Part shown: piece after piece, positions 4,865-64,000 of the stretch
Position numbering within the stretch: position 1 is the stretch's first letter
How the letters are laid out: each line of letters begins with the position of its first letter
NCBI GenBank assembly: GCA_049999805.1
Contig: JBNGIO010006230.1
Span: forward strand, 67,494 to 131,493
Source of the DNA: Folioceros fuciformis
Lineage: Eukaryota
Direction of reading: 5' to 3'
DNA: 64,000 bases
Program-made: the position numbers and the translations under genes
Notes under the pieces: model-generated
The model's input: the letters and a program-made list of their open reading frames with translations, nothing else
What the model was told of the DNA's origin: nothing
Databases searched by the model: none

Positions 4865-4937
4865 TCCGTTGTAGTCTAGACGGTTAGGATACTCGGCTCT
4901 CACCCGAGCGACCCGGGTTCGAGTCCCGGCAACGGAA
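4865..4937 (+). tRNA. trnE-CTC: tRNA-Glu (anticodon CTC)
   Basis: tccgttg/caacgga acceptor stem, anticodon arm ctcgg-ctCTCac-ccgag, T-loop ggttcgagtcc, and a T-run terminator just downstream. Confidence 0.97.
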
Positions 4938-5096
4938 TTCGATGAATGGATTTTAACTCAATTTTGAACTAGACTCCTTGGACGAAGGGTGGGAGAACGC
5001 GTAATTCAAAATCGCCACCAGTGGGAAGCACATCCAATTTTGAACGTGATCTCTGATGCTCTCTTCTCCTATCGTGACCTCTTCTCGTTTGAAGCT

Positions 5097-22692: not shown

Positions 22693-23180
22693 AATTGGAC
22701 ATAATAGACGGGGCTCTCCTCGTAAGCGCTCTGTATCTAGTCCGTGCTTGTCGTATGACCTGAGAGAATCATGGAAACCGTTTGCTCTCGGAGGCCTATC
22801 TGTGCACCGTCACAACAATCAAGTCATTACAATCAAGTTATTGGCGGAAGATTCGCATGTTACCTTGTTAGTGTATGTTACCCCTTCACATCACACATCT
22901 CAGGCTGGCTTCTTTCACAGCGGGCAGGAATTTTGCACCTCATGTTCGACGCTGGAACCCTGGCGGCATATCACTTCACGCAATGGAAAGTCCATCAGGA
23001 AACGTTCTATGTGACTCTGCGTGGTCTTGGGCAGTTGAAGCTTGAACGTGAGGGCTGTCAGCGGGTTTCATATCTCAATGGTAGATAATTCATCTCCAGC
23101 TGATATGCAATGTGCTGAAACTGGCCACGAGACGAGTGGACCGGCTAGCCAGGGCCACATCCCGGAAAAGATTCTAGAGA

Positions 23181-25493
23181 ATGTTGGGAAGGGAAGCGTG
23201 GGATCCTGGAGCTGTCGTGGTAAGAGCTTCTGGGTCGGTTGTCTCGGTGCCACATAAGGAGAGCACATGGTCCCGTGACATTCTGCGTCCTGAGTCCCCT
23301 AAAGTTACCTCTGAAGACGTGTACAAACTATGTCAGCTGAAGCGGACCAGCAAAGCTGTCGAGGCTCTGGGAGCTTTGGTGCAGACAGGTTGTCGTCCTT
23401 CTCAGTCACTGTTTTATACTGTCCTGAAAACGTGTGTGGCTAAGAAGGATCTCGTGCTGGGTCGCCGTGTCCATGCTCTCACCGTGAATCAGGGGTATGA
23501 GTCGGACACATTCTTGTGCAACCACATCCTGCGACTATATGCTTCTCATGCCAGGTTGCAAGAAGCAAGGGATGTCTTCACCGTGGTGGCCGAACCAAAT
23601 GCGTTCATGTGGTCTTCCATGATTTCTGCGTTTGTAAGGCAAGGACAAGCTGAGCAAGCCATAGGTCTGTATCATCAGATGCGCAGGTCCAATGTAAAGC
23701 CAGACAGCCATGTGCTCGTTGCAGCATTTCAGGCTTGTGCAAGGGGAGCAGACTTGAAATCTGGACAGCAGGTGCATGCGGACATGTTGGCCAGTGGGAC
23801 GGAGTGCCAACTGGTTCTTCTCAATTGCTTGGTCGACATGTATGCAAAGTGTGGCCGCTTAGAAGACGCGCGGAGAGTGTTTGAAGGGATTCTGCAAAAA
23901 GATGTTGTTACGTGGAATGCAATGATTGCAGGATATTCCCGGCAAGGCCTGGGTCATGAAGCCCTTCGCCTTTACTGTGCTATGACGCAACAAGGCACCG
24001 ATGAACCAGATTCTGTGACATTTGTTTGCCTCCTGCAGGCATGTGCGTCTGTGGGTATCCCAGCCTTACAGACCGGGAAGCTACTTCATGCGCGGATTGA
24101 AAAGCAGAGGCTTTGGGCTGATGTGACGGTAGCCAACAGCCTGATCAATATGTATGCAAAGTGTGGATGCCTACAGGATGCTCAGAATGTCTTTGATGGA
24201 CTTACTCAGAAAACTGTGGTGAGCTGGACTGCTCTTATAGCAGGATATTCGCAGCAGGGCATGGGTCAGGAAGCCCTCCGCCTGTACAGTGCTATGCAAG
24301 ACTCAGACGTCGTTGTAGTCGATGCTTTGTCATTCGTGTGCCTCCTCCAGGCATTTGCCAATGTTGGCACACTTGCTCTTGAAAAGGGGAAGCAGCTTCA
24401 TGCACAAATTAGGGAACAACGACTTCAAGCTGATGTGTTTGTAGGCAACAATTTGGTAAACATGTATGCAAAATGTGGCAACCTGGAGGAGGCTCACAAA
24501 GTGTTCGATATACTTCCTCATAAAGATGTTGTGACGTGGACTTCTCTGATCACAGGATATTCTCAGCTAGGCATGGGTCAGGAATCCCTTCAACTTTACA
24601 GTTCTATGCTTGATGAAGGCGTCGCTGCTCCTACTTCTGTTACATTTGTATGCCTCCTGCAGGCATGCGCAAATGTGGCAGCTTTGCAAGTGGGGAGGCA
24701 ACTTCATGTTGGGATTGAAGAACAAGGGATTCAAACTGATTTATTTGTAGCCACCAGCTTGATAAACATGTATGCCAAATCTGGGAGCATGGTTGATGCA
24801 CATCAGGTATTCGTTACTTCTCCCAAAAGGAATCTTGTTTCCTGGAATGCCCTGATAGCAGGCTACACTCGCCAAGGAGACTCAACCATGGTCTTTGACT
24901 TGTTGGACAGAATGCGACATGACGGCATAAAGCCGAACGCCATCACTTTCGTTTGTGTACTGACAGTCTGCAGTCATGTGGGTCTCGTGGACAAGGGTCG
25001 AGAGTACTTTGAGGTCATGAGTAGATGGTTTGGCATCGCTCCCACAGCTGAGCACTACTCGTGCTTGGTGGATCTCCTGGGTCGCAAGGGCCAACTCACT
25101 GAAGCTCTGAATGTGGTAAGAACAATGCCATTTTCCCCTGATACCACAGTATGGCTCACTCTTTTGAGTGCTTGTCGAAAGTGGAGCAACATGATGGTGG
25201 GGCAGCAAGCTTTTGATGAGGCAGTGAAGCTAGATAAGGAAGATGGTGCAGCGTATGTGCTGATGTCTCTCATATACACTGGAGCCCAGATGTGGGAAGC
25301 TGCGGAGGAGATGCAGTCTAGGAGGAAAGAAATTGGGGCACGGAAGCAGCCGGGTCAGAGTTGGTGGACAGACCTTGACGGGCTAGTGCATAGCTTTCGG
25401 GTTGGAGATGCAGGACATCCTGAGACTGATTGTATGTCCTCAAGCCTATACTTACTCCAGCCTGGATTAATCGCTTGCAAACAAATAAGGTGA
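23181..25493 (+). CDS. PLS-class pentatricopeptide repeat protein with E/E+ domains (organellar RNA-editing factor type), no DYW seen
   Basis: Repeating P-L-S triplets (NxLVxMYAKCG, DVVTWNAMIAGY, TFVCLLQACA), HYSCLVDLLGRKG, WLTLLSAC and the PG box KQPGQSWW...VHSFRVGD..HP. Confidence 0.95.
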   Translation: MLGREAWDPGAVVVRASGSVVSVPHKESTWSRDILRPESPKVTSEDVYKLCQLKRTSKAVEALGALVQTGCRPSQSLFYTVLKTCVAKKDLVLGRRVHALTVNQGYESDTFLCNHILRLYASHARLQEARDVFTVVAEPNAFMWSSMISAFVRQGQAEQAIGLYHQMRRSNVKPDSHVLVAAFQACARGADLKSGQQVHADMLASGTECQLVLLNCLVDMYAKCGRLEDARRVFEGILQKDVVTWNAMIAGYSRQGLGHEALRLYCAMTQQGTDEPDSVTFVCLLQACASVGIPALQTGKLLHARIEKQRLWADVTVANSLINMYAKCGCLQDAQNVFDGLTQKTVVSWTALIAGYSQQGMGQEALRLYSAMQDSDVVVVDALSFVCLLQAFANVGTLALEKGKQLHAQIREQRLQADVFVGNNLVNMYAKCGNLEEAHKVFDILPHKDVVTWTSLITGYSQLGMGQESLQLYSSMLDEGVAAPTSVTFVCLLQACANVAALQVGRQLHVGIEEQGIQTDLFVATSLINMYAKSGSMVDAHQVFVTSPKRNLVSWNALIAGYTRQGDSTMVFDLLDRMRHDGIKPNAITFVCVLTVCSHVGLVDKGREYFEVMSRWFGIAPTAEHYSCLVDLLGRKGQLTEALNVVRTMPFSPDTTVWLTLLSACRKWSNMMVGQQAFDEAVKLDKEDGAAYVLMSLIYTGAQMWEAAEEMQSRRKEIGARKQPGQSWWTDLDGLVHSFRVGDAGHPETDCMSSSLYLLQPGLIACKQIR

Positions 25494-36656: not shown

Positions 36657-38382
36657 ACAACCATAACACTCCTAAGGAAAACCTACGACCGACCAAAAGA
36701 ACAAAAGCCCGACCAAAAGAACAAAAGCCCGTTCAAACTCTTTACATACGTATATCACAGGAATCTGTGTGTAGGGGACGAGTTTGGTGCNNNNNNNNNN
36801 NNNNNNNNNNNNNNNNNNNNNNNNNNNNNNNNNNNNNNNNNNNNNNNNNNNNNNNNNNNNNNNNNNNNNNNNNNNNNNNNNNNNNNNNNNACTAGCCGGT
36901 GGAGCGGAGCCGGTGGCCGAGCGCGTAACGACGAATCCTGCACGCCTCTCGAGAAGCCGGCAATAAACTTGGGGTGAGGTTTAGGCGCTGGGACTTCACG
37001 AACGCAGCAAACCATGATTTCATGATAAAATCCTCAAGTGCCCCACACAAGCAAGGCATGGAATGTCTACAAGATGGATCTACCGAAAGACGACAAAACC
37101 CCATGACAGAAACGTAATTGTGTGCGGTCAGAGAAAGGAAGTTGAAATGATAGTTAACTACGACTGTTGACATCCTCTGGCAACACGGTGGGCAAACACT
37201 AAAAAGTTAAACTTGGCGCTGACAGTTCAAGGGAACAGAGGTAACCTGCCCCTGCACTACGTGCCACAGTCCAGAACAAGGCACCAAGAAATATAATAGC
37301 TCGCAATAGCACAAGTCCACATTCTGCAACCAAAGCAGGCTCTTCACGAGCGCCAACAAGGAACCAGTATGCTTGTCTTGAAGCACTCGGCGGCCTTGGC
37401 AGCCTGCATTAACAGCCGCACAGTTTTAAGAGTCCATCGATATCACAGATGGATCCAACAATGAACAAACAAACGCAAACAAGAAAGCCTCTCACGTTGC
37501 TCAACGAAGCAACACCAACCACTCTCAGGAACAATGCTGGTGGGTGTGGTTGTTAGCAGTACCAGGTGACAAAGCAACTGGGACTTATGAGAAATGTGAA
37601 GATTTTGCTCAGTTGAAGATCCTGAGCTCCCCAGCATCCAACAGTATTGTCAGCACCAAGCGTTCACCAAAAAAGTCAGGCCGCAAAGGTGCACAAAGCC
37701 AGTCATGATGAGTGAAAAAGCTAGCGTTACCTGCAAAGCAGAAGCATTCTGCTGAGCTCCTCAATCACTTGTCAGGGACGTGCGAGCTGCTTGTCCACGA
37801 AGGTGCATCAAAGCAGGCACAGGCAAGCAACTCATGCGTATCTCAACCAGGTAGTAAGGCTGCACCGGACCTACGGGTGAAGGACGCTCAGTGGAGAAAA
37901 GACTTTGACACACAAGCTAAGACAGGAAAACGATGAATCCCTTTGACGGATAGTGCTTCTCGTTCGCTTACGCTGCGGCTAAAAATTGCTACAAACAACG
38001 GCCTAAAAAACAAGGTACATACATAGTGCATTCGACTCACATACGGGCTTCGAAATAGCCATCCAGGAGAGAGGGGGCAACAACCAATCTGCAAAGGTAT
38101 TGCACATCGGATTAGAATAGAGTACAATCCAAGACAATCTACTGTAGACAGGCCCGGAGCAGGGCAAACAGTCAAGCGCCACATGAGGATAAACTCTGGG
38201 CACAACATGAGAAACGATCAAGACAAGCATGGCTAAGGACCACTTTCTTTCTAGCGGGAGATGTTTGAAGAGATCAACTATGGCACAGCGCAGCATTCAT
38301 CACATAAGACAAGACGTTCTGCACCAACAGAAACACAGTTCTGGAGCAGTCGGATGCCGAGGCTGCTCTCTCAACAAGAGAG

Positions 38383-40539: not shown

Positions 40540-41400
40540 GATCTACTCTGATTATAGATTTGCCCAACCACTAATCTACTCTGATTATGGATCTGCTCTA
40601 CTTTGATTAAGGATCTGCTCTACTCTGATTATGGATCTGCTCTACTTTCGGATCTGCTCTACTCTGATTATGNNNNNNNNNNACTCTGATTATGGATCTG
40701 CTCTACTTTGATTATGGATCTGCTCTACTCTGATTATGGATCTGCTCTACTTTGATTACGGATCTGCTCTACTTTGATTACAGATCTGCTCTACTCTGGT
40801 TATGGATCTGCTCTGCTACTGATCTACTCTGGTTATGGATGTGCTCTGCTACTGATCTACTCTGGTTATGAATGTGCTCTGCTACTGATCTACTCTGATT
40901 ATGGATCTGCTCTGCTACTGATCTACTCTAATTATGGATCTACCCGGGGATTCAACAAGGATGCAATTGCCCTGCTACTGATCTACTTTGATTATGGATA
41001 TGCCCTACCATTGATCTACTTTGATTATGGATATGCCCTGCCACTAATCTACTCTAATTATAGATCTACCCTGCCACTAATCTACTCTGATTATGGATCT
41101 ACCCGAGGATTCAATAAGGATGTAGTTGCCCTGCTGTCACTAATCTATTCGGTTTATGGATCTACCTGGGGATTCAACAAGAATGTAGTTGCTCTGCTGC
41201 CACTGATTTACTTTGATTATGGATCTACCCGGGGATTCAACAAGGATGCAGTTGCCCTGCTACTGATCTACTCTTATTATGGATTTGCCCTACCATTGAT
41301 CTACTCTGATTATGGATCTGCCCTGCCACTAATCTACTCTGATTATGGATCTACCCGGGGATTCAATAAGGATGTAGTGGGAATTCAACAAGGATGTAGT
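40540..41400. repeat. Complex satellite (20/22-bp and 30-bp units, higher-order insert acccggggattcaacaaggatgcagttg)
   Basis: ctactctgattatggatctgct(ctgctactgat) repeated more than 25 times; includes a 10-N gap. Confidence 0.93.
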
Positions 41401-46039: not shown

Positions 46040-49000
46040 ATGGCAGACGCAGGGCAGCAAGAACCGCTTCGTGGGTACGACAGAAACCCAATCGGTGGCA
46101 GGACAGGACAGGGTGAGCCCTTCTGTCCCCCGGGATGGACCTGGAGAACAGGCAACAGGGTGCAAGACATGTATTTCACAGCGCCAGGGCCCAATGGCGA
46201 GAGGTTTCGCTCTAAGACCGAGCTCAAAGTGTACTTGGACAAGCTGCCTGACGGCCCTCGGATGGAGGACTTCCACTGGAAGGCCCCTGCTTATTGTAAG
46301 TTTCGTCTTGCTGTTACACTGGTTGTTGCTCTGGGCGACTGGTTCATTGGGTTGTGCTGGATAAGTGAATGTGATACATGGTCGGAGTGAACGAACTGAG
46401 CGGAGCCCAGTGTTTGTTGTGTTTACTTGCGAAATGTCCATACGGAGATGCTGATTTTTCGGGCGCACAGATCTGAAGACAGGGGAAGTGCCTGGGGTGC
46501 CGTACAACATGAGACCCCGGGGTNNNNNNNNNNNNNNNNNNNNNNNNNNNNNNNNNNNNNNNNNNNNNNNNNNNNNNNNNNNNNNNNNNNNNNNNNNNNN
46601 NNNNNNNNNNNNNNNNNNNNNNNNNNNNNNNNNNNNNNNNNNNNNNNNNNNNNNNNNNNNNNNNNNNNNNNNNNNNNNNNNNNNNNNNNNNNNNNNNNNN
46701 NNNNNNNNNNNNNNNNNNNNNNNNNNNNNNNNNNNNNNNNNNNNNNNNNNNNNNNNNNNNNNNNNNNNNNNNNNNNNNNNNNNNNNNNNNNNNNNNNNNN
46801 NNNNNNNNNNNNNNNNNNNNNNNNNNNNNNNNNNNNNNNNNNNNNNNNNNNNNNNNNNNNNNNNNNNNNNNNNNNNNNNNNNNNNNNNNNNNNNNNNNNN
46901 NNNNNNNNNNNNNNNNNNNNNNNGTGCAGGAAGAGGTGGTAGAGGGAGGGGTGGGTACAAACGGAAAGCTGTAGAAGATCTTGATCGGACTGCTGCAATG
47001 GATCTTGACGAGGAAGAGAAGAAAGCCAAGCTGAAAGATGTAGCGAGGAAGACGCTCATGGTAGAGTTCTTGCCTTGTCCGTTGCTGCAGATATGTGAGA
47101 GCTGAAAAGTGCCTTCTGACGCTCTTGAGCCTTCACTACAGGTTAGTTCCACATTCAGTACTGAACCCAAGATTGAACCTCAGGCCTACACTTCACTGCC
47201 ATTTCTGTCGCGGGACCGGGCTGATGGCGGCAATGCCACCGTCGAGCAGGCCATGGTTCCGCTTGCCCTCCCCGCTCCAGCTAAGAGGAAACGGGGCAGG
47301 CCTCGGTCGTCGGTGGACGATCACTCATTTACCACCATCCTTTCAACGGTGACGAGTTATAAATGGCTCACAGACACAAGCGACGACCTTCGAAGGTTTA
47401 TGGAAGAGGCAGAACATTTGGGGCAGAGAAGTGAAGAGGAAATGCTCGAGTATCGGAGGCTGCTGCTGTCCAGGACTCATGATGCAGTTAGCATGAGGAG
47501 ATACACCAAGCCTGTGCTTCACACTTTCGTCCGAATCTTGAGGAACGAGGAAGCACCTGACTTTTTGGGAAGACTTGATCTTGCTGATTTGTGCTGCAAC
47601 TGGAACTGTAAGCACAAACGGTACTTCTGCTTACTAGAGGAGGGCAGAATTCAAGGTATGAGGCAGTGCAGGATGGACAAGGAGCCGTTCACCAGTGCCA
47701 GGCTTGACAAAGAGACCTTGTGGAGGCTCATGGGGGCTGAGGACGAAGCTACGGCCTATCCCTCACAGAATGGAGGGATGGCCGCAGGTGTTGACACCGT
47801 TCAGACACGGGAGGAGACGAACACGAAGCTGGAACAAGCTGATGAGTGTTCCTCACTATCCAAGGGTGGGGAGTTTGAGCCCGTCAGTGAGGGTCGGAGG
47901 ACAAGAAGGAATGCACAACGAGCAAATGTGTGCTTTTGTAAAGCTTGTACTAGCGAGGCTAAGTTCTGTCGGGGGTGTGTGTGTGGAATATGCAATACAC
48001 TTGCTTCTCCTGCAGAGTCTTGGAGGGTCGTCAAGTGTACCAGCTGCCAGCATCTGTTTCATTTGGATTGTGCCGTTGAGACAAAATGTGCTGGAGTAGT
48101 GAAAGAAGTTGCGCTGGATGTGGAGTTTTTCTGTTCCCTTTGCAACTGCAAGACGGACCTGTTTCCTTTCTGGAGGGAGAGAGTACATGGAGCTATAGCA
48201 AGCAAGGATGTAGCCAGCCTTGAGAAGCACATACGGTCTGCTGTCACTGTGTTGAGAGGGTCACAAAGGAATCACTATGCTCCTCTCCATGAAAGAATGG
48301 AGGAGGCGTATAACGTGCTTTTGCAGGGTTCCAACTATCCGGAAGTGTACTGCTTGTTACAACAAATTGAGCAACAGCTTGACTCTCTTGGAGTTAATCA
48401 GCTGACTGCTGGTAATGTTTTAACTTCAATTTTAGTGTCCTATTGTCTCATTCCTGTTAGGTTCCTTCGTTGTGGCCACAAATCGGATTGTGATGCCTGT
48501 AAGCTCTCTGTTTGTTTGTACAGGTGACAGCAATGCGTCGGTTCCCGACCTGCAACAGAGTGAAAAGGAGTTACTTGAGCTGGAGGTCAGAGTATTCCAT
48601 CTCCAAAAACTTGCAGATGAAGATCATAAAGAGTGGAGCGAAAGAGAGAAGGTTGCAGATGCAAAGAGGTTGTGCTTCCTGGAGGCGGAGGAGCATTGGA
48701 AGCAGGCAGCGGATGCTGCAAAAGAAAAGTGTGAAAAGGCTTCTGCATCCCGGCTACTTGTACATAAAGAAAAGCAGAGGCTGACGGCGCTCAGAGAAAG
48801 AGCCGAGCCTCTAGTATTTACTGCAGCAGAGTTGGAAGCCAAGAACCAGGTGATGCAAGGGGAGTATCGAGAGCTGGAAAGGCTGGAGAGAGAACTGAGA
48901 GAATTGGACCAGACTGATGCAGTAGGCATCAGTAAGTTGCAGGATCGAATTGCAATCCAACAGATCAGAGTTAATGCATCGCGGGCCAGGTTTGGTAAGC

Positions 49001-53768: not shown

Positions 53769-55045
53769 ATGGATGCAGACGAAGAGGCCCTGCACGCCCT
53801 CCAGCGTCGGCAGGAAAGGATTCTGGACGACATTGGCCGCTTTGCTGCCAGCGTAGGCTGCGAGGAACTTTCACCAGAGCTACTGCAGCTTGAGGTGCGC
53901 CAGGCTCTGCTCTCAGAGGGCATTGGGTCGACTTGGGGCAAGATTGGTGTCCCATCCGATGACCCTGCGTGGGACAAGCAAGGGCGGATATTTGAGGAGA
54001 GATTAGCTGCCGAGCAACGGGACACAGAGGGAACCCTGTCGCAGAAAGGTGTGGTTATTGCTGAAGAGCCTGAGACCACACCTAAGCTTTCAGGAGGACA
54101 GCCGGACAGCTTGGATGGCAGTGAATCGAACACTAGGGTTTTAGATGACACAGTTGAACATTTAGCTGCGGTTACCATCTCACCTGACCATCTGGGAACG
54201 CCGGACGGGCCTGGTGTGGAGGTCCAGCTGAGGAAAATTTTGGGGGCAGGAGGCGTCACTGACTTCCGGTTTGTGAGAGTACCGGAGGATTACTACAGTA
54301 GATCCTTCCAAGAGCGACGGGACTTGCTAGGAGCAGCATCCATTTTTCACCTGTGCAAGAGTATCGTCATGGTTCCTCTCCTTCAACCGTGGACCTTGTG
54401 TGCTACATATGTACTTGTGCTCTCTTCAGAAAACAGCAGCCTGCTGGTGTCTCGTAATGTTTGGTGTCCTCGTCGTGGAATGCGCAGATAAATACCCAGG
54501 GCCATATTCGAGATTGCAGTGTTCCTAGGAACTCCAAGTTCTACCTGATTGTGGTGCAGTACTGCGCCCGCCTGAACGCGGAGAAATTGAGGCATTTTAT
54601 TTACTCCCTGAACAATGGGGAAATACCCAAGAAAAGATTCAACTGTGAGTGCGCATGTGGCACATGGAGTACGGGGTCAGCGTGCTGATGTACGTTTCCT
54701 GGGGGTTGGAGTGACAACTGTTTTATGTGTTGTGCAGTTAGGCTGGCATCTGAACAAGACTCTCTGCTCCTGACGGGATATGGGCACAACGCCGTCACAC
54801 CAATTGGAATGAACACTAGAATTCCGGTATAATTGGGTTTCTCCTGTTCCCTGGAATATGAGTAGTGGGAATGGGCACTCATGTCATTTTTGGCTCGTCT
54901 CGTTCAGGTGATTCTATCAGATGCGATACTTAAGCTCAAGCCAGACTTTTTCTGGCTGGGTGGCGGGGAAGTGGACCTCAAACTTGGTATCAGAACCGGT
55001 GAATTCGTTAACTTACTGCAACCGTTTGTTGCAGATTGCACATGA
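53769..55045 (+). CDS. YbaK/aminoacyl-tRNA synthetase-associated (tRNA-editing) domain protein, 4 exons
   Basis: FRFVRVPEDYY...RRDLLGAASIFHLCKSIVM-INTQ...NSKFYLIVVQYCARLNAE...GYGHNAVTPIGM...FFWLGGGEVDLKLG. Confidence 0.9.
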
Positions 55046-55166
55046 TTCCAATAATTGTTCAAGTTAGTGCAGCCCTTCTAGAACACAAATACAAAGGGTC
55101 TAGAAATAAATGAGGTTCTTCAGCTTTCAATGATCTGCCAAATTGAATAAGCCGGTCCCGACTGCA

Positions 55167-58100
55167 TCACATACCTTCGCTGGAGCATGTGCTAAGAGTG
55201 AGATTGGATTCCAACTTGACCTGTCCAGAGCCATCTCTTACTTGTAGGCTTATAATGGGGTCCCTCTCTTCCCAGTGTACCTACAAGAGCACAACGGTGC
55301 CTCCTGTGACTAACATGCTCGAATTCTTAGAGGTACAAAAATCATGCCTTCGAGTAGTCATGGCATTCACATGAAAGAGCCACCGCACCTGGACCATTCC
55401 AAAGGATGGGCCGCGTACAAATTCACATTCTTCATGGTCGCGCAACTTGACCGAGTCTCGCCTCCGTACTGCACAAGCAGCAAACTCCTATTAACTTCTA
55501 AACGCATGTAACTGACCTGCAGGTGATTAAAAGAGCTCCAAAATGAACTCCATACCATCACATGTCCAGTTCCTGCCTGTACTTGTGGTTAGCCCACTAG
55601 CCATAACCTGCCACAAAGAATATCAGTGCCCGAGAAACTGTCATATGCCGGATTCCATTGCATCTTGGCCTATGTGCCTCCCTGTGCATGCGAAAATTTT
55701 CCTAAGCTTACCTGATAAAGTGGGTAAGACGCATCTATCCCCTTATAGTAAGGAGAATATGCATGTTCACCCGGCCTCAGCACCTGTTCAGTCAAGATAC
55801 ACGAACAATAAGCGCAGCTGAGGAATTACGTTGCTGAAGCACACTTGTGTACCAGCGTCCTACCTTGATATCTGAGTAATGAAAATCTCCGGTAAGTACG
55901 GCTACACATCCACTTGTTCTAGTCAGTAAGTGCAAAAGTTGTAATTGCGCAGGCTTGTAACACTCCCAGTCATCACTGGAGCAGCGGCACTCAACTCCAG
56001 TCTTCCCTTCTTCATCCAGATCTCCACAGACCTGGCTCAACCCTTTCATTATCAGACTCATCCTGTAGAGCTCCAGATCGTTTGCCAAGACAAAAACACA
56101 TGGATACTACCTTCTTATCGGGATTCCCAATGAGAACTGAGCTCGACACAATCAACTTGATGGCAGCATTGGACTCCTCCAGGGCACCCTCTAGCCACAA
56201 TCGTTGCTCTCGGCCTAGAACCTGCTTGCATGTCACCCGATCTTTCAATTAATGAGCCAATGCTCTCCACATGCGAGACCTGATAGTTTGACAAATACTC
56301 CTCACAAACCTCACAGAATGGAGACTCCACGCGTCCATCCACGAGCTCTGCACCTGTCGCCTCCCTTAGCTGACCATCAGGATCCACAGCAAGAGGACGG
56401 GTACCAAAGTCGGTAGAAGTTGGATCACAAGCTTCTGCCCACATTGGACTGCCCTTGTTGTTTTCCTGCATACACCACCCTTGCAATTCATTCAAACACC
56501 TCAGGACAGATGCAGCAGAATTGGAAGCATTGGAACATACATCCTGCCCATGCAAAAGCAGAAGTCCAGAAGCAAAAGGCTGGCGGAAGTCGATTACCAT
56601 AGAAAATTTTATCATCCTTGTCGCAGCAAGAGCCAGTGCCTAAATCCCCTGCATGTAGAAAATCCAAACACCTGCGATGCTAATCGTCTGTCAGTTCGGA
56701 TGTTGTAGACTTCAATCCTATGGTAATCAAAACCAGTAAGCTGCGAGGGTTAAGATCAGCACTGAATACGGACCAGGCATACTTGGGACTGGCAACATTT
56801 GTTAAAACAAGCTTTTCACAATAATCTCGCCGCATGTGGCACGGAAGAGGATCACGGTTGTAGCGCTCATCCAGCAGAAAGATGTCGATCTCACGCCCTC
56901 TTTTCCCCTCATTCAGTGTGTACTGTGGAAAAACAAGGAGAAGTAGTGAGACAAGGCGCAAGAGGATGTTCGCTCTCAGTGGGACAGAATCCAAGTACTG
57001 CACTAACTGCTTCTTCAGATGGCAGGAGATATAAAGTAAGAACCTTCCACTCAATACCACGCCCACTGTTGCGGCGGGCACTGCTTGCTGGCTCGCCAAC
57101 AGCATCCAAGAAAATATTCTTGATGCTGTCTTTGTGGGGCAGCCTCTTATTCCCATTGTTCCTGAGCTCAAGTAGAAGATATGTTACTTCAAGAAAGAGG
57201 ACGACAACTTTGTGAGGTTGATACTGAAGCCGTGCCCTTCACCCACCAGCTAAAATCATGATCATCATATGTCCCAAATATTCTCCTCGGACACACAGAG
57301 GGGTCAGGACCTGTAGGTGGATGCAGACCCTTTGACCGGTGTCCAGGACACATGAAAGCCAAGAACTGCATCACAAACGCACAACATTACCTACACATTG
57401 AGTTATGTCCTTCCAGAAACAATTCAGAAACGCAGCAGGTCGCTCTACCTCCCGATCACAACCTGGGGGGGCAGCAGGGGTTGTAATGCACGGGACTTAC
57501 CTGGGCGTAGTCAGGGTTGGCGAGCTGAGCTTGCACACGGCTCAAGGCATGGTCCATGTCACCTGTACCAGACGCAAAGTCGTACCCAAGTCAAGCATTG
57601 AGCATGGCGTAACGATACAATCTGCTGAGTCCCTTCTAGTAGAGAAGGCTCCAGGTTTCGGAACAAGAACCTGCCATGCAAGAATAAGGAGCTTGATGAA
57701 GCCAATCATTGGTGCAATCACATTCCTTGTGTCCTGATAGGGAATCACAATTCACTCGAGGCTCATCCATGTACGCCATATCTCCTAGCCTGCGAACGCA
57801 AAGCCAAAATTTTCTGGACTTTCCAACGAGCTACAATTCCAGGAAGAACTACCACGCGGACTGGCTGCAAACAAAGTAACCAACATCGCAGAAGCTAACC
57901 ATATCCATGCATCGGGTTCGCTGGGAATAACTCCATTAGTCCAAACCGGCTGTGGCTGGTAGTCATAGGCCGTACAGGACCCAAATGCTATCTTGGACAC
58001 CAACTTCGGCGGAACAGAATTGAAAATCTGGGAAACCTCCAGCCGCTCCAGAAGCGCAACACTCCAAATTGAGATGGCGGCCGAGCCGAGAGACAGGATA

Positions 58101-58377
58101 CCCATACACACCAAAAGCGCGGTCTTCCAGCGTATCTGCAGCCAATGAGCCGCCCCGTCCCGCAGCGTGCCAACCTGCCCCGACGTGAGCAGCATGAACC
58201 CAGCGGGAGTTGTGAATCAGCTTCGGTATCGTGCTTTAGAAATTTGCATCACCGCACCTTGCGTCTAATGCCTCGCCGCCGGCTTGTTCCCAGAGGCTCC
58301 TGAGAGTCGGCCCAGCTCTCCGGCTCCAGCAACTCCAAATCCTCCAAATCTGGCCCACCATTCCTCTTCCTGTCCAT
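55167..58377 (-). CDS. PhoD-type alkaline phosphatase/metallophosphoesterase with N-terminal membrane anchor, multi-exon
   Basis: KIAFGSC, WIWLGDMAYMD, GTYDDHDFSWNNG, FLLDERY, LGREQRLWL, LTGDFHYSDI and VMASGLT motifs. First exon MDRKRNGG... is inferred; alternative start at 58195. Confidence 0.9.
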
Positions 58378-58775
58378 CTCCACAGACCGGAAGTCCAAGA
58401 CGATTAACACGCTGCTCCACTATCGCCCGCTACTGCACCTTCCCACGGCCATGAACCACATTACAACATGCTCGGCATCTGCCTCGTGCAGCCTCTCTTC
58501 ACGACTACGTCACTCCACGTTTTCTTCCATAACACTTCCTCCACCTTGACGGGTTAGTACGAAGGAGCACAAGACTCAGAGGAGAACAGGACTCTTAAGA
58601 TTGCTTATATTTCATAATAAAACACTCACAGTCAATGATTGTAGGTCATGCACTGCCAGTTTCGGGTCCATGGCGGTACTAAGACAATGTTAAATAAGAT
58701 TAAGGCAAATAAGATTAAGGCGGTTCTCGGAACCGAGAGAAGAGTCGGGCTTAGAAACACAGGCAGGGGACACTT

Positions 58776-61289
58776 CTACTTCTTCCTCTTGGAGCGCCTC
58801 AGGAGTTTCTTGGACAAAGTTTTACTGATAGTTAGAACCGTAGGACCCATACAATCGGAGGGCTGGGAAGGTTTGAAAATGTCCTTGGGTCTGTTGGTGC
58901 ACCTCAGCTCGCTACTGCTAACAGGTCGAGTGAGCTCCTCCACGAGCAGAGGGTCTCGATTTCGTAGGCTCACTGGCGGGAACACTCTCAGCCAGTGACC
59001 AGCCTGATGGCCGCCTGCATCCGGCACCAGCTGCCTCTTGGCCAGGTAGAGGATCTCCATTGACAGCCTCTCGCCGAAGGACAAGTGGGTGTGCGCAGAA
59101 CCCAGGAAGTCTCCTTGCAGACTCCTCATCTGTTCCACGTAGTCCCATAGGCAGGCTACAAGCTGAGACAAGAACTGGGGTTCGTGAATCTGCCCGCCTT
59201 TAGGAAACTTCCTGAAGTAGGCTAGCACATGGAGGAGCATCCTGCGGGTAGGTGCATCGGGCACGGGGTTCTCCGCCAACTTGAGAAGCGCAGACATAAC
59301 AGTGGCCACACCCCGGTGACGGTTGCTGTGGCCGGAGTTGGAGTCCACCATCCCTGACTCTCTGTCGCTTCCAAACACCTCCCGGAAATGCTGGCCGCGG
59401 CGGTCCTTGACCGTCTGAGCGATTCCCTGTTTCACACCCTCGTCCGGAGCAAGCAGGTAGTCTTGGATCTCTTCCGGGTGGATGAACGCAGTCCCGCATG
59501 AACCACAACACACTACAGCAGGGCCCCGCATGTGGGCCGGTGAGAAGCATGGGACAATTTCCCTGTGCACGTCGTCCTCAATGCTGTGAACATGCTGGTG
59601 CCGCTGAGCCAAGAGCTTCTCCACCTCCTTCGCCTCCACTCCCCTTGGAAAGGCAAACGCGAGCCAAAGCAGAGGATGCTTCACAGCCAGGCGACGGATA
59701 AAGGCCTCGGTGCAGGGCGGCGAGTGAAGTTCTGTCAGAAAGCAGTACATCAACAGCGTCACCATCTCCAACGAAATCCGAGCAGACTCCAGGGACTTGA
59801 GCACAGAGTTGAAATTCTTTCCAAAGATGGTGGCAAGGAACTTAGAACCAGCCAGGGAGGAGATAACTCTTCCGGTCCCCTTCACCGGGAAGCCTTGAAC
59901 CTCAAACAGGTCAGCCTCCAGCAGTCGAAGGAGCAGTTCAACCTCATACCCACGGAGGCGCTGCCTGTCGGAGCACCATCTCCGGACACGGGAGACGATA
60001 GTTTTGAACAGCTCCCTGTTTACAACGTCGTTCACCGCTTGGGCCGATCCCACAGCGCCGTTCCTGATTCCCAACCGGCCCAGGCAAGAAATGGAGGTCA
60101 AGCTCTTGCTGCGGAGCGGAACAAGAAGGCCCTCCAAATCCGCAAATCCAGGCAACTCTCTCCCGACGGGTACGCCTGCGCCCTGGAAGACATCCGAAAT
60201 GGCGAGACACATGGGCTTGCCCCGCTTACCACGTCCTTCGAAGTTGGCCCGCAAGTGCGGGAAGAATTCCTTCTCCAGGAAATCCAGCGCCGGCGCTAGT
60301 GTTCTTCCCTCCTGGCGTGCGGTATCGAAGACAGCCAGGAGTGCCTGCCACTCTATGCCCAATCGTTTGCCTCCAAACAGCCAGCAGCTGGCGTTGGAGG
60401 CCAGCCGCGCCAAATTCACTCTGCTGAACTTCACTACAGGGAAGAAGGTGGCAACCTGCTGGCGAGTGTAGGGACAAAGAGCCCGCCCGGACACAAGGAA
60501 CGAGGCGCAGCAGATGCAAAGAGATGTCGCTGGGAGGAAACGTGCGTTGGAAGGTCCCATAGAGAAGGCATCGTTCAAAAACGAATCCTGGGTGTTCGTA
60601 GCAAGCTCTCCTGCAGGGATTTGGCAGGCCAGCAGCGCCTGAGCCCGTGTCTCAGCGCACAGGTCACAATCCACTTCGAACGCTCCCTGTAAGTCCCAGG
60701 CCTCCTCCTGACCAGACAAATGTTCCACGGATAATCTGGCTCTCTGTGCTCTGTTGGACCCCTTGGATCCGACAGATGTGCGTCTACTGTCCCATCGCGA
60801 TATCCAAGCTGCCAGTCCGTTGTAGCGGAAAGTCACAGGCCTGGTGGCCTCCAGCGTCGCCCGCCGCCGGGAGTCTTCGTGCTGAAATAATTGTTGGGTG
60901 ATTCCAGCTAGCTCCTTCTGCATTGGCGTTCGTAGCTGAACGTCCTGTTCCTGCAGCAAGAGCTGATACAGTTCATCGGCTCTACATCTCAGTTGCAGAA
61001 TTCCCTCATAAGCCTCCGACGAGCCCCTATCTACATCATCCTGAATTTTTTCTATGGCGCGCTTGTACCACACCGCAAGAGAATCTCTTAACCTCCTACA
61101 GCTAGCAGGGGTGGGAGGAACAACACCTCGTTCCACGAACCCCACATAGTTCTCTATCCCGTCTATATCAGGTAAGGCGCTCGTATCCTCCGCCGCCAAT
61201 TTAGACCTCAACACATCCGTCAATTGAGTCGGCTCCGAAGAATCCCTGTTGCGTAAATTTCCATCGACACTGATCAGCGGGGGCAGCAT
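58776..61289 (-). CDS. Uncharacterised 837-aa intronless protein with several CxxC/His motifs
   Basis: 2.5-kb uninterrupted ORF of ordinary globular composition with CDLC, CICCA..CPYTR, CCGSCG, RGQHF and HSNRH motifs; no plant family recognised. Confidence 0.8.
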   Translation of the reverse strand: MLPPLISVDGNLRNRDSSEPTQLTDVLRSKLAAEDTSALPDIDGIENYVGFVERGVVPPTPASCRRLRDSLAVWYKRAIEKIQDDVDRGSSEAYEGILQLRCRADELYQLLLQEQDVQLRTPMQKELAGITQQLFQHEDSRRRATLEATRPVTFRYNGLAAWISRWDSRRTSVGSKGSNRAQRARLSVEHLSGQEEAWDLQGAFEVDCDLCAETRAQALLACQIPAGELATNTQDSFLNDAFSMGPSNARFLPATSLCICCASFLVSGRALCPYTRQQVATFFPVVKFSRVNLARLASNASCWLFGGKRLGIEWQALLAVFDTARQEGRTLAPALDFLEKEFFPHLRANFEGRGKRGKPMCLAISDVFQGAGVPVGRELPGFADLEGLLVPLRSKSLTSISCLGRLGIRNGAVGSAQAVNDVVNRELFKTIVSRVRRWCSDRQRLRGYEVELLLRLLEADLFEVQGFPVKGTGRVISSLAGSKFLATIFGKNFNSVLKSLESARISLEMVTLLMYCFLTELHSPPCTEAFIRRLAVKHPLLWLAFAFPRGVEAKEVEKLLAQRHQHVHSIEDDVHREIVPCFSPAHMRGPAVVCCGSCGTAFIHPEEIQDYLLAPDEGVKQGIAQTVKDRRGQHFREVFGSDRESGMVDSNSGHSNRHRGVATVMSALLKLAENPVPDAPTRRMLLHVLAYFRKFPKGGQIHEPQFLSQLVACLWDYVEQMRSLQGDFLGSAHTHLSFGERLSMEILYLAKRQLVPDAGGHQAGHWLRVFPPVSLRNRDPLLVEELTRPVSSSELRCTNRPKDIFKPSQPSDCMGPTVLTISKTLSKKLLRRSKRKK

Positions 61290-62274
61290 TATTTTGGACA
61301 GGTTCCGATCAAGGAGCCAAGCCAGAAGATCCCTCCAAGAGAATTGACGAAGCGAGGATCAGGGAGGGCAGTATCCAGTAGAGAACCAGCACCTACTGCT
61401 TCATCAGGGGATGGATGGTGGTGCGGTCCCAGTGATACCTCCACAACCACCTCAAGACACAGTACATAAATGAAGCATCTACGAGCAGATTCAAATCTGC
61501 TGGCCCTCTCCCAACGCCGCCCGTAAACGGACAAAGCATTTGACCAAGCCTGATTAAGTCACAGATGCCTCTAACGATTCACCTTCCTGTCCGTGGGGAC
61601 AACAGAAGTCTTACACGCAATAATAACACGAAACATGCGAGCGAGAGGGGAGAAGTACCAACCGGCGCCGCGCCATACCCTCCCCACAGTTCCAAGGCGG
61701 ACCACACCATCTCCAGCCCAACGTAGTCTAGCACGTTGGCGATCTGGTGAGTATGGATCCGACGTCGTCTGTCTGTAGCCTCGTCCCACCCTCCGAAACC
61801 AAGGCAGACTCATGCTTCTCAGAATTGGTCTTGTGAAGTGCAAATTCCGAACCAATAGTTACAGCCAAAACAAAAGCCACCAGTATCCATTGACGCCGTA
61901 ACCGATGTCGATCCGTCATCATCGTCCACTCACACACTACTACCTGCAGACAGGCTCCAAAGGCGTAAGGATCCCAACCGTCTCCATTGCAGGTCAGTCT
62001 TCCCACAAGCACAGAATCATGGATACAAAAAAAGGAAGCGGTCGGCTGCATATCAAGTAGGGTATGTGGGGGATTCCGACACGGGCAACCATGGAGGAAC
62101 AGAGCAGGAAATAACCTTTGCCGGTGACAAAAACCCATGGCCGGTGGGTCAACAAAACCTTGGTTGTCATCACCCCCAACATCACCGAAACATAACCATT
62201 GCGTCGCAATAGAATCAATTACCCAAAAGCAAAGGATGGACCCCAGCCAGTCCCTCCACTAGAAAAACGCCCCT

Positions 62275-63927
62275 TCATTCAGGCCACTCATGGGATGCAC
62301 CATTCTCATCGTGGACTGCACCATTCTCGTTCTGCAAGGCAGAATCACTGTCCCCTGCGCCATCTGAAGCAGAGGCTGCGGCAGGGAAGAAGTCCGCAGC
62401 TGGAAAGAGCTGGTGAAAGATACTCTCCGTAGCAATCACAACGTCGCCGTAGTGGACACTCTGGTCCGGCATGGGGCAGACAGCGACCTGACCATTTAGC
62501 AATGCCTCGCACCCTCTCCCACCCCCAACTGCACCGAAGAAGAAAGCGGACCACAGCACTTTGGGCCTGTCACTGCCACCCTCACCAGACAGCAAAGCCC
62601 GGGCAGCTGCGACCAGAACATCCTCAGCATCATCCCCTTCCCACGCAGTCGACAAATACACCGCAAACCGGTCCTGCGGACAAATAGACACCCCGCCTCC
62701 CAACTGCAAAGCGTACACAGGACGGGAGAACCCACTCCGCACAGAACCAGGAGGAAAAACCACCAACACATTGGTCTGGCCGTCCTTCAAAGTCGCATCC
62801 GTCACAAAAACCAGCCTAGCCACCTTCCCCGCCCTGACGCCTGCCCCGACAGCCCTTCCTTCATCCGAAAGAGCCTCAGCAAGCTCGCCCTCCACCTCCA
62901 CAGGCAGGTGCGGCCGCCCCGCTACCAGCGTCCGGCTGAAGAGCAGTTGCCCGGCCCGGGTGCGGACTCCCTTGTAAACCTCAGTCTGCCTGTCCACCAG
63001 CAACGCATCAACAGGCCGCCGGAGCACGTATAACGCGCCCTTCACAGCCGCGCATCTGCAGAACGCCTGCGGTAGCTCCCCCTGCCCGTAGAGCGGGTAG
63101 ATGAATGCGCCGGGCGCGTTGGTAAACCTTCCTACGGACGCACGATACACCGCCAGACGCTGCAGCCCGTCGCGCGACGAGAGCTTCTCCCCGCCTGCCT
63201 CCTCCTGGTCGCTCTCCGCGAACGCAAACGCATACAGCACCATGGCCTGGAGCGAGGCCGGAAGCCGCTGCTTCCGCAGCAATTCCACGAATGGGCCATC
63301 CAGATCCTCCTCTGCAAACCCAGCTCCCCCCTGGCCCGTCACCAGCTTCAAAAACCGCATGAGCAGACGCTTCTCAACCAGGCTCAGCGACTGATCCTGG
63401 AAAACCTCAGCCTGCGAGGCCGGTACCGTGACCAGGCCCCCCGGTGTCCAGAGGTAAGACCTCTCCACCGCCTTGAACTCTAGGTAACTGGTCGCGCCTG
63501 CTCGCAGCATCAGGTCCACCAACGGCCCTGCGGAGAAGGCCAGCTTCGGCCCTGCCAGATCCAGGTTGTACGCACTCAGCCTTCCCAGCTCCGGGGCCCC
63601 TGCCCCGGCCTCTCCTCCATCGTCCAACAATCCAGCCTTGAATCCTGAGAAGGCGCCGGATCCGGCCGTGCTGATCAGCTTCCAGTCTGCCGCCCCTGCG
63701 CCAGCCGTCACGCCGTCCTCTTCTCCGGACACAGCTCCCCCGACGTGCGCCGCCACGGCCTCCGGGGACAGCGAGGCCCAGGCGGAGCCGTACACATCCC
63801 CTCCATCCAGATGCAACACCGAGAGGCCGGCCGCAGCGGCGGCGGCCGCCAAAATGGATTCCGGCAGCCCCGTGCCGAGCACGATCACGTCAAAGGAGTC
63901 GGGGTGGATCTCCAAGTCGCGCTCCAT
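62275..63927 (-). CDS. REP: Rab escort protein (REP/GDI family), intronless
   Basis: FDVIVLGTGLPESILAAA...VLHLD...YGS, YNLDLAGP, YLEFKAV, LSLVEKRLLMRFLK and YPLYGQGELPQAFCRCAAVKGALYVLR. Confidence 0.95.
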   Translation of the reverse strand: MERDLEIHPDSFDVIVLGTGLPESILAAAAAAAGLSVLHLDGGDVYGSAWASLSPEAVAAHVGGAVSGEEDGVTAGAGAADWKLISTAGSGAFSGFKAGLLDDGGEAGAGAPELGRLSAYNLDLAGPKLAFSAGPLVDLMLRAGATSYLEFKAVERSYLWTPGGLVTVPASQAEVFQDQSLSLVEKRLLMRFLKLVTGQGGAGFAEEDLDGPFVELLRKQRLPASLQAMVLYAFAFAESDQEEAGGEKLSSRDGLQRLAVYRASVGRFTNAPGAFIYPLYGQGELPQAFCRCAAVKGALYVLRRPVDALLVDRQTEVYKGVRTRAGQLLFSRTLVAGRPHLPVEVEGELAEALSDEGRAVGAGVRAGKVARLVFVTDATLKDGQTNVLVVFPPGSVRSGFSRPVYALQLGGGVSICPQDRFAVYLSTAWEGDDAEDVLVAAARALLSGEGGSDRPKVLWSAFFFGAVGGGRGCEALLNGQVAVCPMPDQSVHYGDVVIATESIFHQLFPAADFFPAAASASDGAGDSDSALQNENGAVHDENGASHEWPE

Positions 63928-64000
63928 GGCAGTGAAGCTGCGAACGCGAGCGCCTGCCCTTCTACCTGGGCTGGGGCCTTAGAGATTGTCCCATGGAGAA

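What the first reader, a model, noticed from the sequence alone, without database searches (positions are those of the whole stretch)
58776..61530. Intronless 837-aa Cys/His-motif ORF with no recognisable plant family: candidate horizontally acquired gene
Seen: a single-exon 2.5-kb ORF between the PhoD and REP genes, with motifs SNRAQRA, CDLC, NTQDSFLNDAF.MG, CxxCA...CPYTRQ..FFPVV, LFGGK, GPAVVCCGSCG..F, R..HF..VF and SGHSNRH. Upstream of the ATG the frame continues (SWRDLLAWLLDRNLSKI) to a stop, and another frame holds GVGRGPADLNLLVDASF, which suggests a decayed or spliced N-terminal domain. Inference from memory, not verified: this motif order resembles uncharacterised vWA-like + zinc-finger proteins of fungi, protists and giant viruses rather than a core plant family, so it could be an HGT or endogenous-virus-derived gene with an undescribed function.
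Basis: partly seen in the sequence, partly recalled or inferred. Interest (0 to 1): 0.8.

Follow-up and report, generated by a model that had tools for sequence, protein, structure and literature searches.

The report
Truncated protist-type gene in a plant
A land-plant genome carries a transcribed, intron-free gene from a rare, unnamed protein family otherwise seen in amoebae, chlorarachniophyte algae and environmental DNA; its front domain seems to have decayed while the remaining 837 codons stay intact, so it is a good candidate for an old horizontal gene transfer, function unknown.

Summary
The ORF is real: window 58776-61289, minus strand, 837 aa, with every quoted motif at its place. It has no Pfam, NCBIfam, PHROG or PDB sequence match. 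An exhaustive HMMER search found a small family: 42 representatives, best 32% identity. A family profile built without the ORF hits it at E=3e-119. Full-length relatives are 950-1400 aa. They start with a MIDAS-type vWA domain (hhalign to E. coli YfbK E=1.5e-5, controls 0.24-0.53). The ORF lacks that domain. A frameshifted relic of it probably lies just upstream, at 61465-61636 (24.5 bits; 0 of 400 shuffles and 0 of 214 real chunks reach this). A profile of distant members does not detect the relic. A spliced RNA contig from an independent study covers the whole ORF. The neighbours are plant genes: REP, a PLS-E PPR and Oberon. The only named relatives are Pelomyxa, Bigelowiella and Lotharella. 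Eight viral-contig scans found no relative. Best reading: an old horizontal acquisition from a microbial eukaryote, kept as a vWA-less zinc-module protein.

The parts
58776..61289 (-). Intact single-exon coding sequence, 837 aa plus stop (P0001)
   Evidence: A family HMM built without it hits at E=3e-119. It is covered without any joint by RNA contig record 19.
61290..61358 (-). In-frame leader back to the upstream stop codon (no ATG in it)
60738..60758 (-). SNRAQRA motif (family consensus SNRAxRA)
   Evidence: N in 25, R in 26 and A in 25 of about 29 filled rows.
60459..60668 (-). Four-Cys module C208-x2-C211 ... NTxDxxLN ... C258-x2-C261 ... CPYTRQ. Read as RING/U-box-like; this is inferred.
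   Evidence: Conservation: C208 in 34 of 34 filled rows; C211, C258 and C261 in 25 each. Weak sub-threshold hints only: MUL1 RING E=1.7; zf-C3HC4_3 E=1 and 0.82 in two relatives.
59316..59567 (-). His/Cys module: H575, C595-x2-C598, R631-x2-H634, H658
   Evidence: H575 41/44, C595 40/44, C598 42/44, H634 41/44 rows. No known family matched.
61465..61636 (-). Probable relic of the C-terminal half of the family's vWA-like domain (profile nodes 92-152). It has 2 frameshifts, near 61572 and 61564.
   Evidence: Searches support it; searches do not detect it.
61396..61865 (-). Possible full extent of the decayed vWA region (nodes 3-174, 7 frameshifts). Seen under lenient settings only.
   Evidence: 36.0 bits against a shuffle maximum of 25.5 (150 shuffles). 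One unrelated real chunk reached 32.7, and the N-terminal half alone is not significant (59 of 200 shuffles).
61944..62115 (-). 172-nt GT..AG intron between the REP stop codon and the ORF's ATG, removed in the RNA contig
   Evidence: joint 61941/62114 with cut +2; read off the sequence. DNA runs X1 and X2 do not show the joint.
58589..63975 (-). Extent of one 5215-nt RNA contig (run X3) that covers the REP ORF, the spacer minus its intron, and the whole 837-aa ORF with about 187 nt of 3' trailer
   Evidence: record 19, with 0 other letters and 0 gaps.
62275..63927 (-). Neighbouring host gene: Rab escort protein, single 550-aa ORF

Best explanation
This is a genuine, transcribed nuclear gene of a land plant. 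It encodes a truncated member of an undescribed eukaryotic protein family. Full-length members have, in order: a MIDAS-type vWA domain, a coiled-coil linker, an SNRAxRA motif, a four-Cys module, a long helical region and a His/Cys module. In this plant the vWA part has decayed by frameshifts into the 5' leader. The 837 codons behind it have stayed open and keep the family's conserved residues. The protein is therefore most likely still used, without its MIDAS 'input' domain. Shown: family membership, absence of the vWA domain, transcription, and linkage to plant genes. Probable: the vWA relic. Inferred: the gene entered the plant lineage by horizontal transfer from a microbial eukaryote long enough ago to take on host codon usage. 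Also inferred: the protein acts as a zinc-dependent protein-binding or ligase-like (RING/U-box-type) module. I put about 0.2 on that last step alone.
For: Family. There are 42 representatives at E<=1e-3 among 1.84 billion, best 2.2e-51. A profile built without the query gives E=3e-119. P0001 holds the consensus residue at 64 of 83 conserved columns, rank 14 of 31 full-length rows.

vWA in relatives. The triad DxSGS...GGTxP...TDG is present. hhalign of the nearest clade against E. coli YfbK gives E=1.5e-5 over 93 columns with the three motifs in register. A second clade gives E=0.0071. Controls give 0.24-0.53.

Truncation. Query residue 66 aligns to about residue 270 of relatives.

Relic. The region-limited hmmsearch gives E=0.028. 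The frameshift-tolerant profile alignment scores 24.45 bits, against 400 dinucleotide shuffles (mean 14.9, max 22.6) and 214 real chunks (max 21.4). Two sub-clade profiles each put their best hit at the same place: 2 of 200 and 1 of 200 shuffles reach it.

Selection. There are at least 2 frameshifts in the 172-nt relic and none in the 2514-nt ORF. The inference of constraint from this is mine.

Expression and linkage. RNA run X3, from another study than the DNA runs, shows spliced joints in the neighbouring gene. One of its contigs spans REP, the spacer and the ORF.

Host. A PLS-E PPR, PHD_Oberon and GDSL lipase lie in the window. The best named REP hits are bryophytes at 41-43% identity.

Distribution. 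The named relatives are Pelomyxa schiedti, Bigelowiella natans and Lotharella globosa only: 3 organism names among 30 of the 42 looked up. In the tree the ORF is nested among environmental sequences (96/88), next to the Pelomyxa clade (100/100). Codon usage lies within the host range: RSCU r=0.49, host genes 0.02-0.69.
Against: No donor is identified and the tree is unrooted. The ORF sits on a long branch (1.53 changes per column) with deviant composition.

The host's lineage is poorly sampled in the protein collections: the best REP relative is 58% identical and unnamed. The window's own protein is absent from the collections. Orthologues in close relatives could therefore exist unseen.

Twelve of the 42 hits were never looked up for source.

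The relic is not detected by tblastn (top 22.3 bits; shuffled tops 19.2-23.5). It is not detected by the broad N-terminal profile (E=21). It is not detected by a profile of 17 distant members (127 of 200 and 144 of 200 shuffles reach it). Under two of five parameter sets 2 of 150 shuffles reach it.

The RING/U-box reading rests on motif shape and sub-threshold hits only. No structure could be predicted.

If the mRNA starts upstream of the intron, 16 ATGs precede the start codon, which would hamper translation. Translation is not shown.
Confidence: 0.55

Rival explanations
1. Vertical relic. The family is ancient in eukaryotes and has been lost almost everywhere. This plant lineage is one of the few that kept a now truncated copy.
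For: Named members come from two other supergroups, Amoebozoa and Rhizaria. Codon usage is host-like. The long branch is compatible with long residence. Relatives of the host are poorly sampled.
Against: No plant or alga name appears among the 30 of 42 hits looked up, although the same collections return more than 100 named plant REPs. The ORF is nested inside one sub-clade of environmental sequences rather than standing apart. No hit exceeds 32% identity, and no fragment has the ORF as its best match.
Confidence: 0.2
2. Endogenous giant-virus gene. The ORF is what remains of an NCLDV insertion.
For: It is intron-free. Relatives lie on compact environmental contigs up to 396 kb. The one contig seen (L001) is AT-rich and gene-dense, with an unusual GC mosaic. 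NCLDV-like insertions are known in a moss and a lycophyte (PMC4083422, abstract read).
Against: There were 0 relatives in 8 scans of 2.9 million viral contigs, using four clade alignments and four single relatives. No viral hallmark gene lies beside it; both neighbours are host genes. It is transcribed, whereas the moss insertions are clustered, silent and methylated. The named homologues are cellular.
Confidence: 0.1
3. Transcribed pseudogene. The whole gene is dead, and the 837-codon frame is merely not yet broken.
For: The front domain is already broken. The ORF lies behind a long leader rich in ATGs, on a contig shared with REP. No protein evidence exists.
Against: A 2.5-kb frame without a stop or frameshift sits next to a 172-nt stretch with 2 frameshifts. 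Retention of conserved positions is typical of the family, 77% against a range of 55-93%. All near-invariant Cys, His, Arg and Glu residues are kept.
Confidence: 0.1
4. Transposon-borne gene or assembly/contamination artefact.
For: It is an orphan-like intron-free ORF in a draft assembly with 510 N.
Against: No terminal or flanking repeats beyond chance 15-22-mers. No transposase or other TE domain. There is one copy in the window. DNA-contig depths over the ORF (X1 4.3-10, X2 8.2-14.7) are like the flanks, with the caveat of one figure per contig. An RNA contig from a different study joins it to the plant REP gene with 0 differences.
Confidence: 0.03

Closest known systems
Unnamed family of hypothetical proteins, e.g. 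Pelomyxa schiedti KAH3757517.1 (P0011), Bigelowiella natans jgi 89672 (P0028), Lotharella globosa EP00469_P004460 (P0024), plus metagenome proteins P0003-P0006
   Same: They are homologous over residues about 66-750. They share SNRAxRA, the CxxC...NTxDxxLN...CxxC...PxTRQ module, GPxVxxCxxCGxxF, RxxHF and an invariant Glu.
   Different: The plant protein lacks the N-terminal vWA domain, which is replaced by a decayed relic upstream. It has its own about 50-aa basic C-terminal tail and sits on a long branch. The chlorarachniophyte clade has no vWA either. Instead it carries a different module of about 250 aa after SNRAxRA, and it has lost three of the four Cys.
vWA (von Willebrand factor A) domains with a MIDAS site, e.g. 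E. coli YfbK
   Same: The relatives' N-terminal domain aligns to the YfbK vWA with DxSGS, GGT/GST and TDG in register. Pfam VWA is the only hit on the L001 N-terminus, at E=0.16.
   Different: It is below Pfam's threshold. In the window only a frameshifted remnant remains, so the ORF itself has no vWA.
RING / U-box E3 ligase domains, and plant vWA+RING ligases of the RGLG type (the RGLG comparison is recalled, not from any call)
   Same: There are two CxxC pairs followed by a (C)PxTRQ turn, as in the second half of a RING or U-box. Weak hits point to the MUL1 RING and zf-C3HC4_3 positions 25-47. The domain logic 'vWA then RING-like' is shared.
   Different: Only four Cys are present, so one zinc site at most. 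A 40-50-residue insert carries NTxDxxLN. No hit reaches significance. The domains are in the order vWA, long linker, module, inside a protein about 1000 aa long that has a further 500 aa of unknown fold.
NCLDV-like insertions in Physcomitrella and Selaginella (PMC4083422, abstract read)
   Same: Foreign-looking, intron-free ORFs in early-diverging land plants.
   Different: Those are clusters of up to 16 viral ORFs, silent and methylated. This is one gene between host genes, transcribed, and without any viral relative found (and the eight viral scans).

Membership tests
Unnamed vWA/Zn-module family (P0003-P0044) | Significant match to a family profile built without the query, over most of its length | tested here: met
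   E=3e-119, profile positions 262-940. phmmer best hit 2.2e-51.
Unnamed vWA/Zn-module family (P0003-P0044) | Conserved residues: C208, D235, R276, N292, H575, C595, C598, R631, H634, G699, E745 | tested here: met
   All are present in P0001. Consensus is kept at 64 of 83 conserved columns.
Unnamed vWA/Zn-module family (P0003-P0044) | N-terminal MIDAS-type vWA domain (present in most full-length members) | tested here: not met
   The ORF starts after it. No open vWA frame lies anywhere in the window. Only a frameshifted relic is found at 61465-61636.
vWA domain (Pfam PF00092 / IPR002035), asked of the relatives' N-terminus | MIDAS triad DxSxS ... T ... D in a Rossmann-like domain, with profile similarity to a known vWA | tested here: met
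   hhalign of A2 against YfbK gives E=1.5e-5, probability 80%, 93 columns. Controls give 0.24-0.53. Pfam VWA reaches only E=0.16. The fold itself was not tested.
RING / U-box (e.g. Pfam PF13920, PF04564) | Cross-brace zinc site(s), or the U-box equivalent, recognisable by profile or fold | tested here: inconclusive
   No Pfam hit at E<=1 in P0001. zf-C3HC4_3 reaches E=1 and 0.82 in 2 of 12 relatives scanned at E<=10. MUL1 RING reaches E=1.7 and 5.1.
Endogenous NCLDV element | Relatives in giant-virus genomes, with viral hallmark genes alongside | tested here: not met
   0 relatives in 8 viral-contig scans. The neighbours are REP and an intron-rich host gene. The scans work through short peptide patterns, so distant viral relatives could be missed.
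Transposable element gene | Terminal repeats or target duplications, a TE protein domain, and multiple copies | tested here: not met
   Genome-wide copy number could not be tested because no genome is held.
Horizontally acquired gene in a plant | Absent from related plants and nested within a donor clade in a rooted, labelled tree | tested here: inconclusive
   It is nested among unlabelled environmental sequences. No plant name appears among the 30 of 42 hits looked up. The donor is unlabelled, and sister plant genomes could not be searched.

The most novel reading that the evidence does not exclude
A land-plant lineage has domesticated a gene taken from a microbial eukaryote. The gene belongs to a wholly uncharacterised family of vWA, RING-like and His/Cys modules. 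The plant shed the MIDAS sensor domain and kept the rest under selection. The family, with an invariant Cys, two His and a Glu, and with 2H-phosphoesterase fusions in some members, may be a new kind of zinc-dependent ligase or enzyme, possibly acting in RNA/nucleotide-linked conflict or quality control.
Probability: 0.25. Interest if true: 0.65.

Novelty: new variant of a known kind. Interest (0 to 1): 0.45.

Why it matters
If the reading holds, this is a clean case of eukaryote-to-plant gene transfer followed by domain loss and retention. It has an internal clock, because a decayed domain sits beside a preserved one. It also flags a protein family of about 1000 residues that no curated library or solved structure covers, yet which is conserved across Amoebozoa, Rhizaria and one plant. 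A plant copy that works without the vWA domain would show which half of the protein carries the core activity.

Tried and rejected
Structure and atlas. No fold search was therefore possible. The ESM Atlas was closed for the ORF and for a homologue.

Protein searches. The word-index searches found nothing with the ORF or with alignment A1. PDB searches with the sequence and four profiles returned only coiled-coil noise. NCBIfam and PHROGs returned nothing. Rfam found nothing at 58000-62400.

Collections. There were 0 relatives in 8 viral-contig scans. Prokaryote species genomes gave 0 relatives. Searches failed for lack of a conserved stretch. No whole genome is held.

Giant-virus promoter. The Mimivirus-type early promoter motif in L001 gave 2 matches, and 48 of 200 shuffles did as well, so it was rejected.

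RNA. No RNA holder was listed by the run index. Run X3 was shown to be RNA only by its spliced joints.

Relic searches that did not reach significance. tblastn of relatives' N-termini against the upstream region was not above shuffles. The same holds for the broad and distant-member profiles and for the N-terminal half of the vWA profile alone. The lenient-setting chain 61865-61396 is reported only as a possibility, because an unrelated chunk (9160-9697) scored 32.7 under the same settings.

A longer ORF through the spliced leader was rejected; none exists.

Earlier findings of this scan held nothing, and one search was a malformed query.

Literature. Searches turned up no description of this family. 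That is not a claim that none exists, and HGT lists in supplements of bryophyte genome papers could not be opened.
Full report
**Observation**

The minus strand of the window holds an ATG-to-stop frame at 58776-61289 that encodes 837 residues. Stop to stop it runs to 61358, which is 860 codons. In 1000 shuffles of 58000-62000 the longest open frame averaged 157 codons and never exceeded 377. So are the in-frame upstream peptide and the out-of-frame peptide GVGRGPADLNLLVDASF. The upstream neighbour is a Rab escort protein gene (Pfam GDI 3.5e-40). I could not confirm the 'PhoD' label of the downstream gene, but that gene is real and rich in introns.

**What the protein is**

The ORF has no match in any curated library I could search:
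- Pfam at E<=1;
- NCBIfam and PHROGs;
- PDB sequences.

The word-index protein search also found nothing. The exhaustive HMMER pass over 1.84 billion cluster representatives did find relatives. There were 42 at E<=1e-3, 15 at E<=1e-10 and 4 at E<=1e-30. The best was P0003 at 2.2e-51 and 32% identity. A profile built from 30 relatives without the query hits the ORF at E=3e-119 and hits nothing else in the window.

No member of a 44-row alignment matches a Pfam family recurrently. The exception is a 2H phosphoesterase domain at the N-terminus of two members. Profiles of the whole family and of three clades find only coiled-coil noise in the PDB. So the family exists, is rare, and is undescribed in these libraries.

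**Architecture of the family**

Full-length relatives are 950-1400 residues. Query residue 66 aligns to about residue 270 of them, so the plant protein lacks about 200 N-terminal residues. In the relatives that stretch carries DxSGS...GGTxP...TDG, which is the MIDAS triad of vWA domains (established knowledge).

I tested this against an annotated vWA protein, E. coli YfbK:
- the nearest-clade alignment matches its vWA at E=1.5e-5 over 93 columns, with the three motifs in register;
- a second clade matches at E=0.0071;
- two unrelated alpha/beta enzymes from the same locus give 0.24-0.53;
- Pfam VWA is the only hit on the L001 N-terminus, but sub-threshold at E=0.16.

Behind the vWA come five further parts:
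- a coiled-coil linker;
- an SNRAxRA motif;
- a module CxxC...NTxDxxLN...CxxC...PxTRQ;
- about 300 residues of helical sequence;
- a module H...GPxVxxCxxCGxxF...RxxHF...H, with an invariant Glu further on.

The plant protein keeps all of these. It holds the consensus residue at 64 of 83 conserved columns and ranks 14th of 31 full-length rows.

**The missing domain**

A profile of the N-terminal domain from the five nearest relatives finds no open vWA frame anywhere in the window. That hit is the best one when the search is limited to the 985 bases upstream on the gene's strand (E=0.028).

A frameshift-tolerant profile alignment that I wrote gives 24.45 bits for that upstream stretch. For comparison:
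- 400 dinucleotide shuffles have mean 14.9, sd 1.8 and maximum 22.6;
- 214 real 985-base chunks from the rest of the window have a maximum of 21.4.

None of these reaches the real score. The alignment covers 61636 to 61465, profile nodes 92-152. It has 58 matched positions, 19 of them identical to the consensus, and two frameshifts. It includes the TLLVTTDG-type strand and the PxxLNLxVFxPFM motif.

Robustness was mixed but mostly favourable:
- Across five parameter sets, 0, 2, 2, 0 and 0 of 150 shuffles reached the real score.
- Profiles of the two sub-clades taken separately both put their best alignment at the same place. Two of 200 and 1 of 200 shuffles reached those scores, and 1 of 108 and 0 of 108 real chunks.

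Four results count against the relic:
- tblastn with single relatives is not above shuffles.
- The broad profile gives E=21.
- A profile of 17 distant members does not see it (127 and 144 of 200 shuffles reach it).
- The N-terminal half of the domain is not detectable on its own.

Under lenient penalties a chain from 61865 to 61396 appears, with seven frameshifts and DDVGS, GGTSP and TD at the MIDAS positions. It scores 36.0 bits against a shuffle maximum of 25.5. However, one unrelated chunk reached 32.7 under the same settings, so I give that extension little weight. I put about 0.75 on a real relic of the vWA domain's second half.

The frameshifts are not assembly errors. Two DNA runs and an RNA run from a different study agree with the window letter for letter over 54000-64000.

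**Expression and gene structure**

Run X3 is listed only as a guess at RNA. Its contigs nonetheless skip 14 GT..AG introns of the downstream gene that the DNA runs keep, so it is spliced RNA. One 5215-nt contig covers 63975-62114 and 61941-58589. That is the REP ORF, the spacer minus a 172-nt GT..AG intron (61944-62115), and the whole 837-codon ORF without any joint.

The ORF is therefore transcribed and has no intron. A contig across two genes does not prove one transcript, so the transcription start is open. If the leader began upstream of the intron it would carry 16 ATGs. Splicing creates no longer ORF.

**Host and origin**

Three lines place the window in a land plant:
- It holds a PLS-class PPR gene with an E motif, an Oberon-type PHD gene, a GDSL lipase and other ordinary genes.
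- The best named REP relatives are mosses and liverworts at 41-43% identity, followed by ferns and seed plants.
- The best REP hit overall is an unnamed 58% match, so the lineage is poorly sampled.

Of the 42 family hits I could look up 30. Organism names came only for Pelomyxa schiedti, Bigelowiella natans and Lotharella globosa. The rest are metagenome or read-archive proteins, on contigs up to 396 kb. No fragment among the remaining 12 has the plant protein as its best match.

In a maximum-likelihood tree of 35 rows, the plant protein lies inside a clade of environmental sequences (ultrafast bootstrap 96, SH-aLRT 88). That clade is next to the one that holds Pelomyxa (100/100). The plant protein sits on a long branch of 1.53.

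The only contig of a relative that I could read, L001, is AT-rich and compact. It carries a TruB-like gene and ORFs with no database match.

Eight scans of viral contigs found no relative, and one scan of prokaryote genomes found none. These scans work through short peptide patterns, so they are weak negatives.

Codon usage and GC3 of the ORF lie within the range of host genes in the window. No flanking repeats or TE domains occur.

Taken together, horizontal acquisition from a microbial eukaryote, not recent, is the most economical reading. A vertical relic with massive loss, and a viral route, remain possible.

**How it probably works**

The contrast between a broken front domain and an unbroken 2.5-kb remainder that keeps the family's conserved residues argues that the remainder is under selection (my inference).

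What it does is open. The four-Cys module has the spacing and the (C)PxTRQ turn of the second half of a RING or U-box. That is my reading of the motif, backed only by sub-threshold hits: MUL1 RING at E=1.7, and zf-C3HC4_3 at E=1 and 0.82.

In the chlorarachniophyte clade three of the four Cys are lost but C208 is kept in 34 of 34 rows. C208 may therefore be more than a zinc ligand.

I commit, at about 0.2, to a zinc-dependent ligase-like or adaptor role in which the lost vWA domain was the partner-binding input. The 2H phosphoesterase fusions hint at a link to RNA or nucleotide metabolism.

**Comparison and verdict**

The closest known things are:
- the unnamed family itself;
- vWA domains, for the lost part;
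- RING/U-box ligases by resemblance only;
- NCLDV-like insertions in moss and lycophyte genomes. Those differ in being clustered, silent and methylated (PMC4083422, abstract read).

Interest is moderate. It is a well-documented candidate for eukaryote-to-plant transfer with domain loss, in a family nobody has characterised, but it has no function or donor yet.

Noticed in passing
window 58589-63975 (minus): One RNA contig joins the REP ORF and the 837-aa ORF. Either the two genes' untranslated regions overlap or there is read-through transcription. The 172-nt intron at 61944-62115 lies in the spacer, and its owner gene is unknown.
   Followed up: partly
window 61290-62274 (minus): The spliced spacer between the REP stop and the ORF's ATG is 813 nt and holds 16 ATGs, with uORFs of 26-80 codons. 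A 64-codon uORF starting at about 61922 coincides with where the ancestral start of the family gene would be expected.
   Followed up: partly
window 62275-63927 (minus); 62288-62329: REP is a single 550-codon exon here, with Ala/Gly-rich inserts. A 21-nt tandem duplication sits near its 3' end.
   Followed up: no
window 54000-55278 (plus): A convergent plus-strand gene with a GT..AG intron (about 54371-54486). Its RNA contig runs into the 3' end of the minus-strand downstream gene.
   Followed up: no
proteins P0024, P0025, P0028, P0031, P0032, P0039, P0043 (alignment A6): A clade that includes the chlorarachniophytes has no vWA domain. Instead it has a module of about 250 aa (GAYDGL...YIFGDN...DGAFTKLYC) inserted after SNRAxRA. 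It has lost three of the four Cys of the first module. No Pfam or PDB match was found.
   Followed up: partly
proteins P0008, P0010: Two relatives carry an N-terminal 2H phosphoesterase domain (PF13563, E about 1e-29) in front of the vWA domain.
   Followed up: no
L001 1-6554: In this metagenome contig the family gene (2140-5061) and the ORF at 5593-6333 have 45-49% GC. The rest of the contig, including a TruB-like gene, has about 32% GC.
   Followed up: no
window 9160-9697 (minus): Under lenient settings the vWA profile scores 32.7 bits here, with TDG- and LNxSVF-like strings. There is no other family signal nearby, so this is probably chance. It shows how permissive those settings are.
   Followed up: partly
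window 23178-25493 (plus): An intron-free 771-codon PLS-class PPR gene with an E motif, which helps place the window in a land plant.
   Followed up: no
window 36791-36890, 40673-40682, 46524-46923: Three runs of N (510 bases in all), so this is a draft assembly.
   Followed up: no
window 58318-58337: The DNA contigs of both runs break at a short CTCCAAATC-type repeat between the ORF and the downstream gene. Linkage on that side rests on the assembly itself.
   Followed up: no
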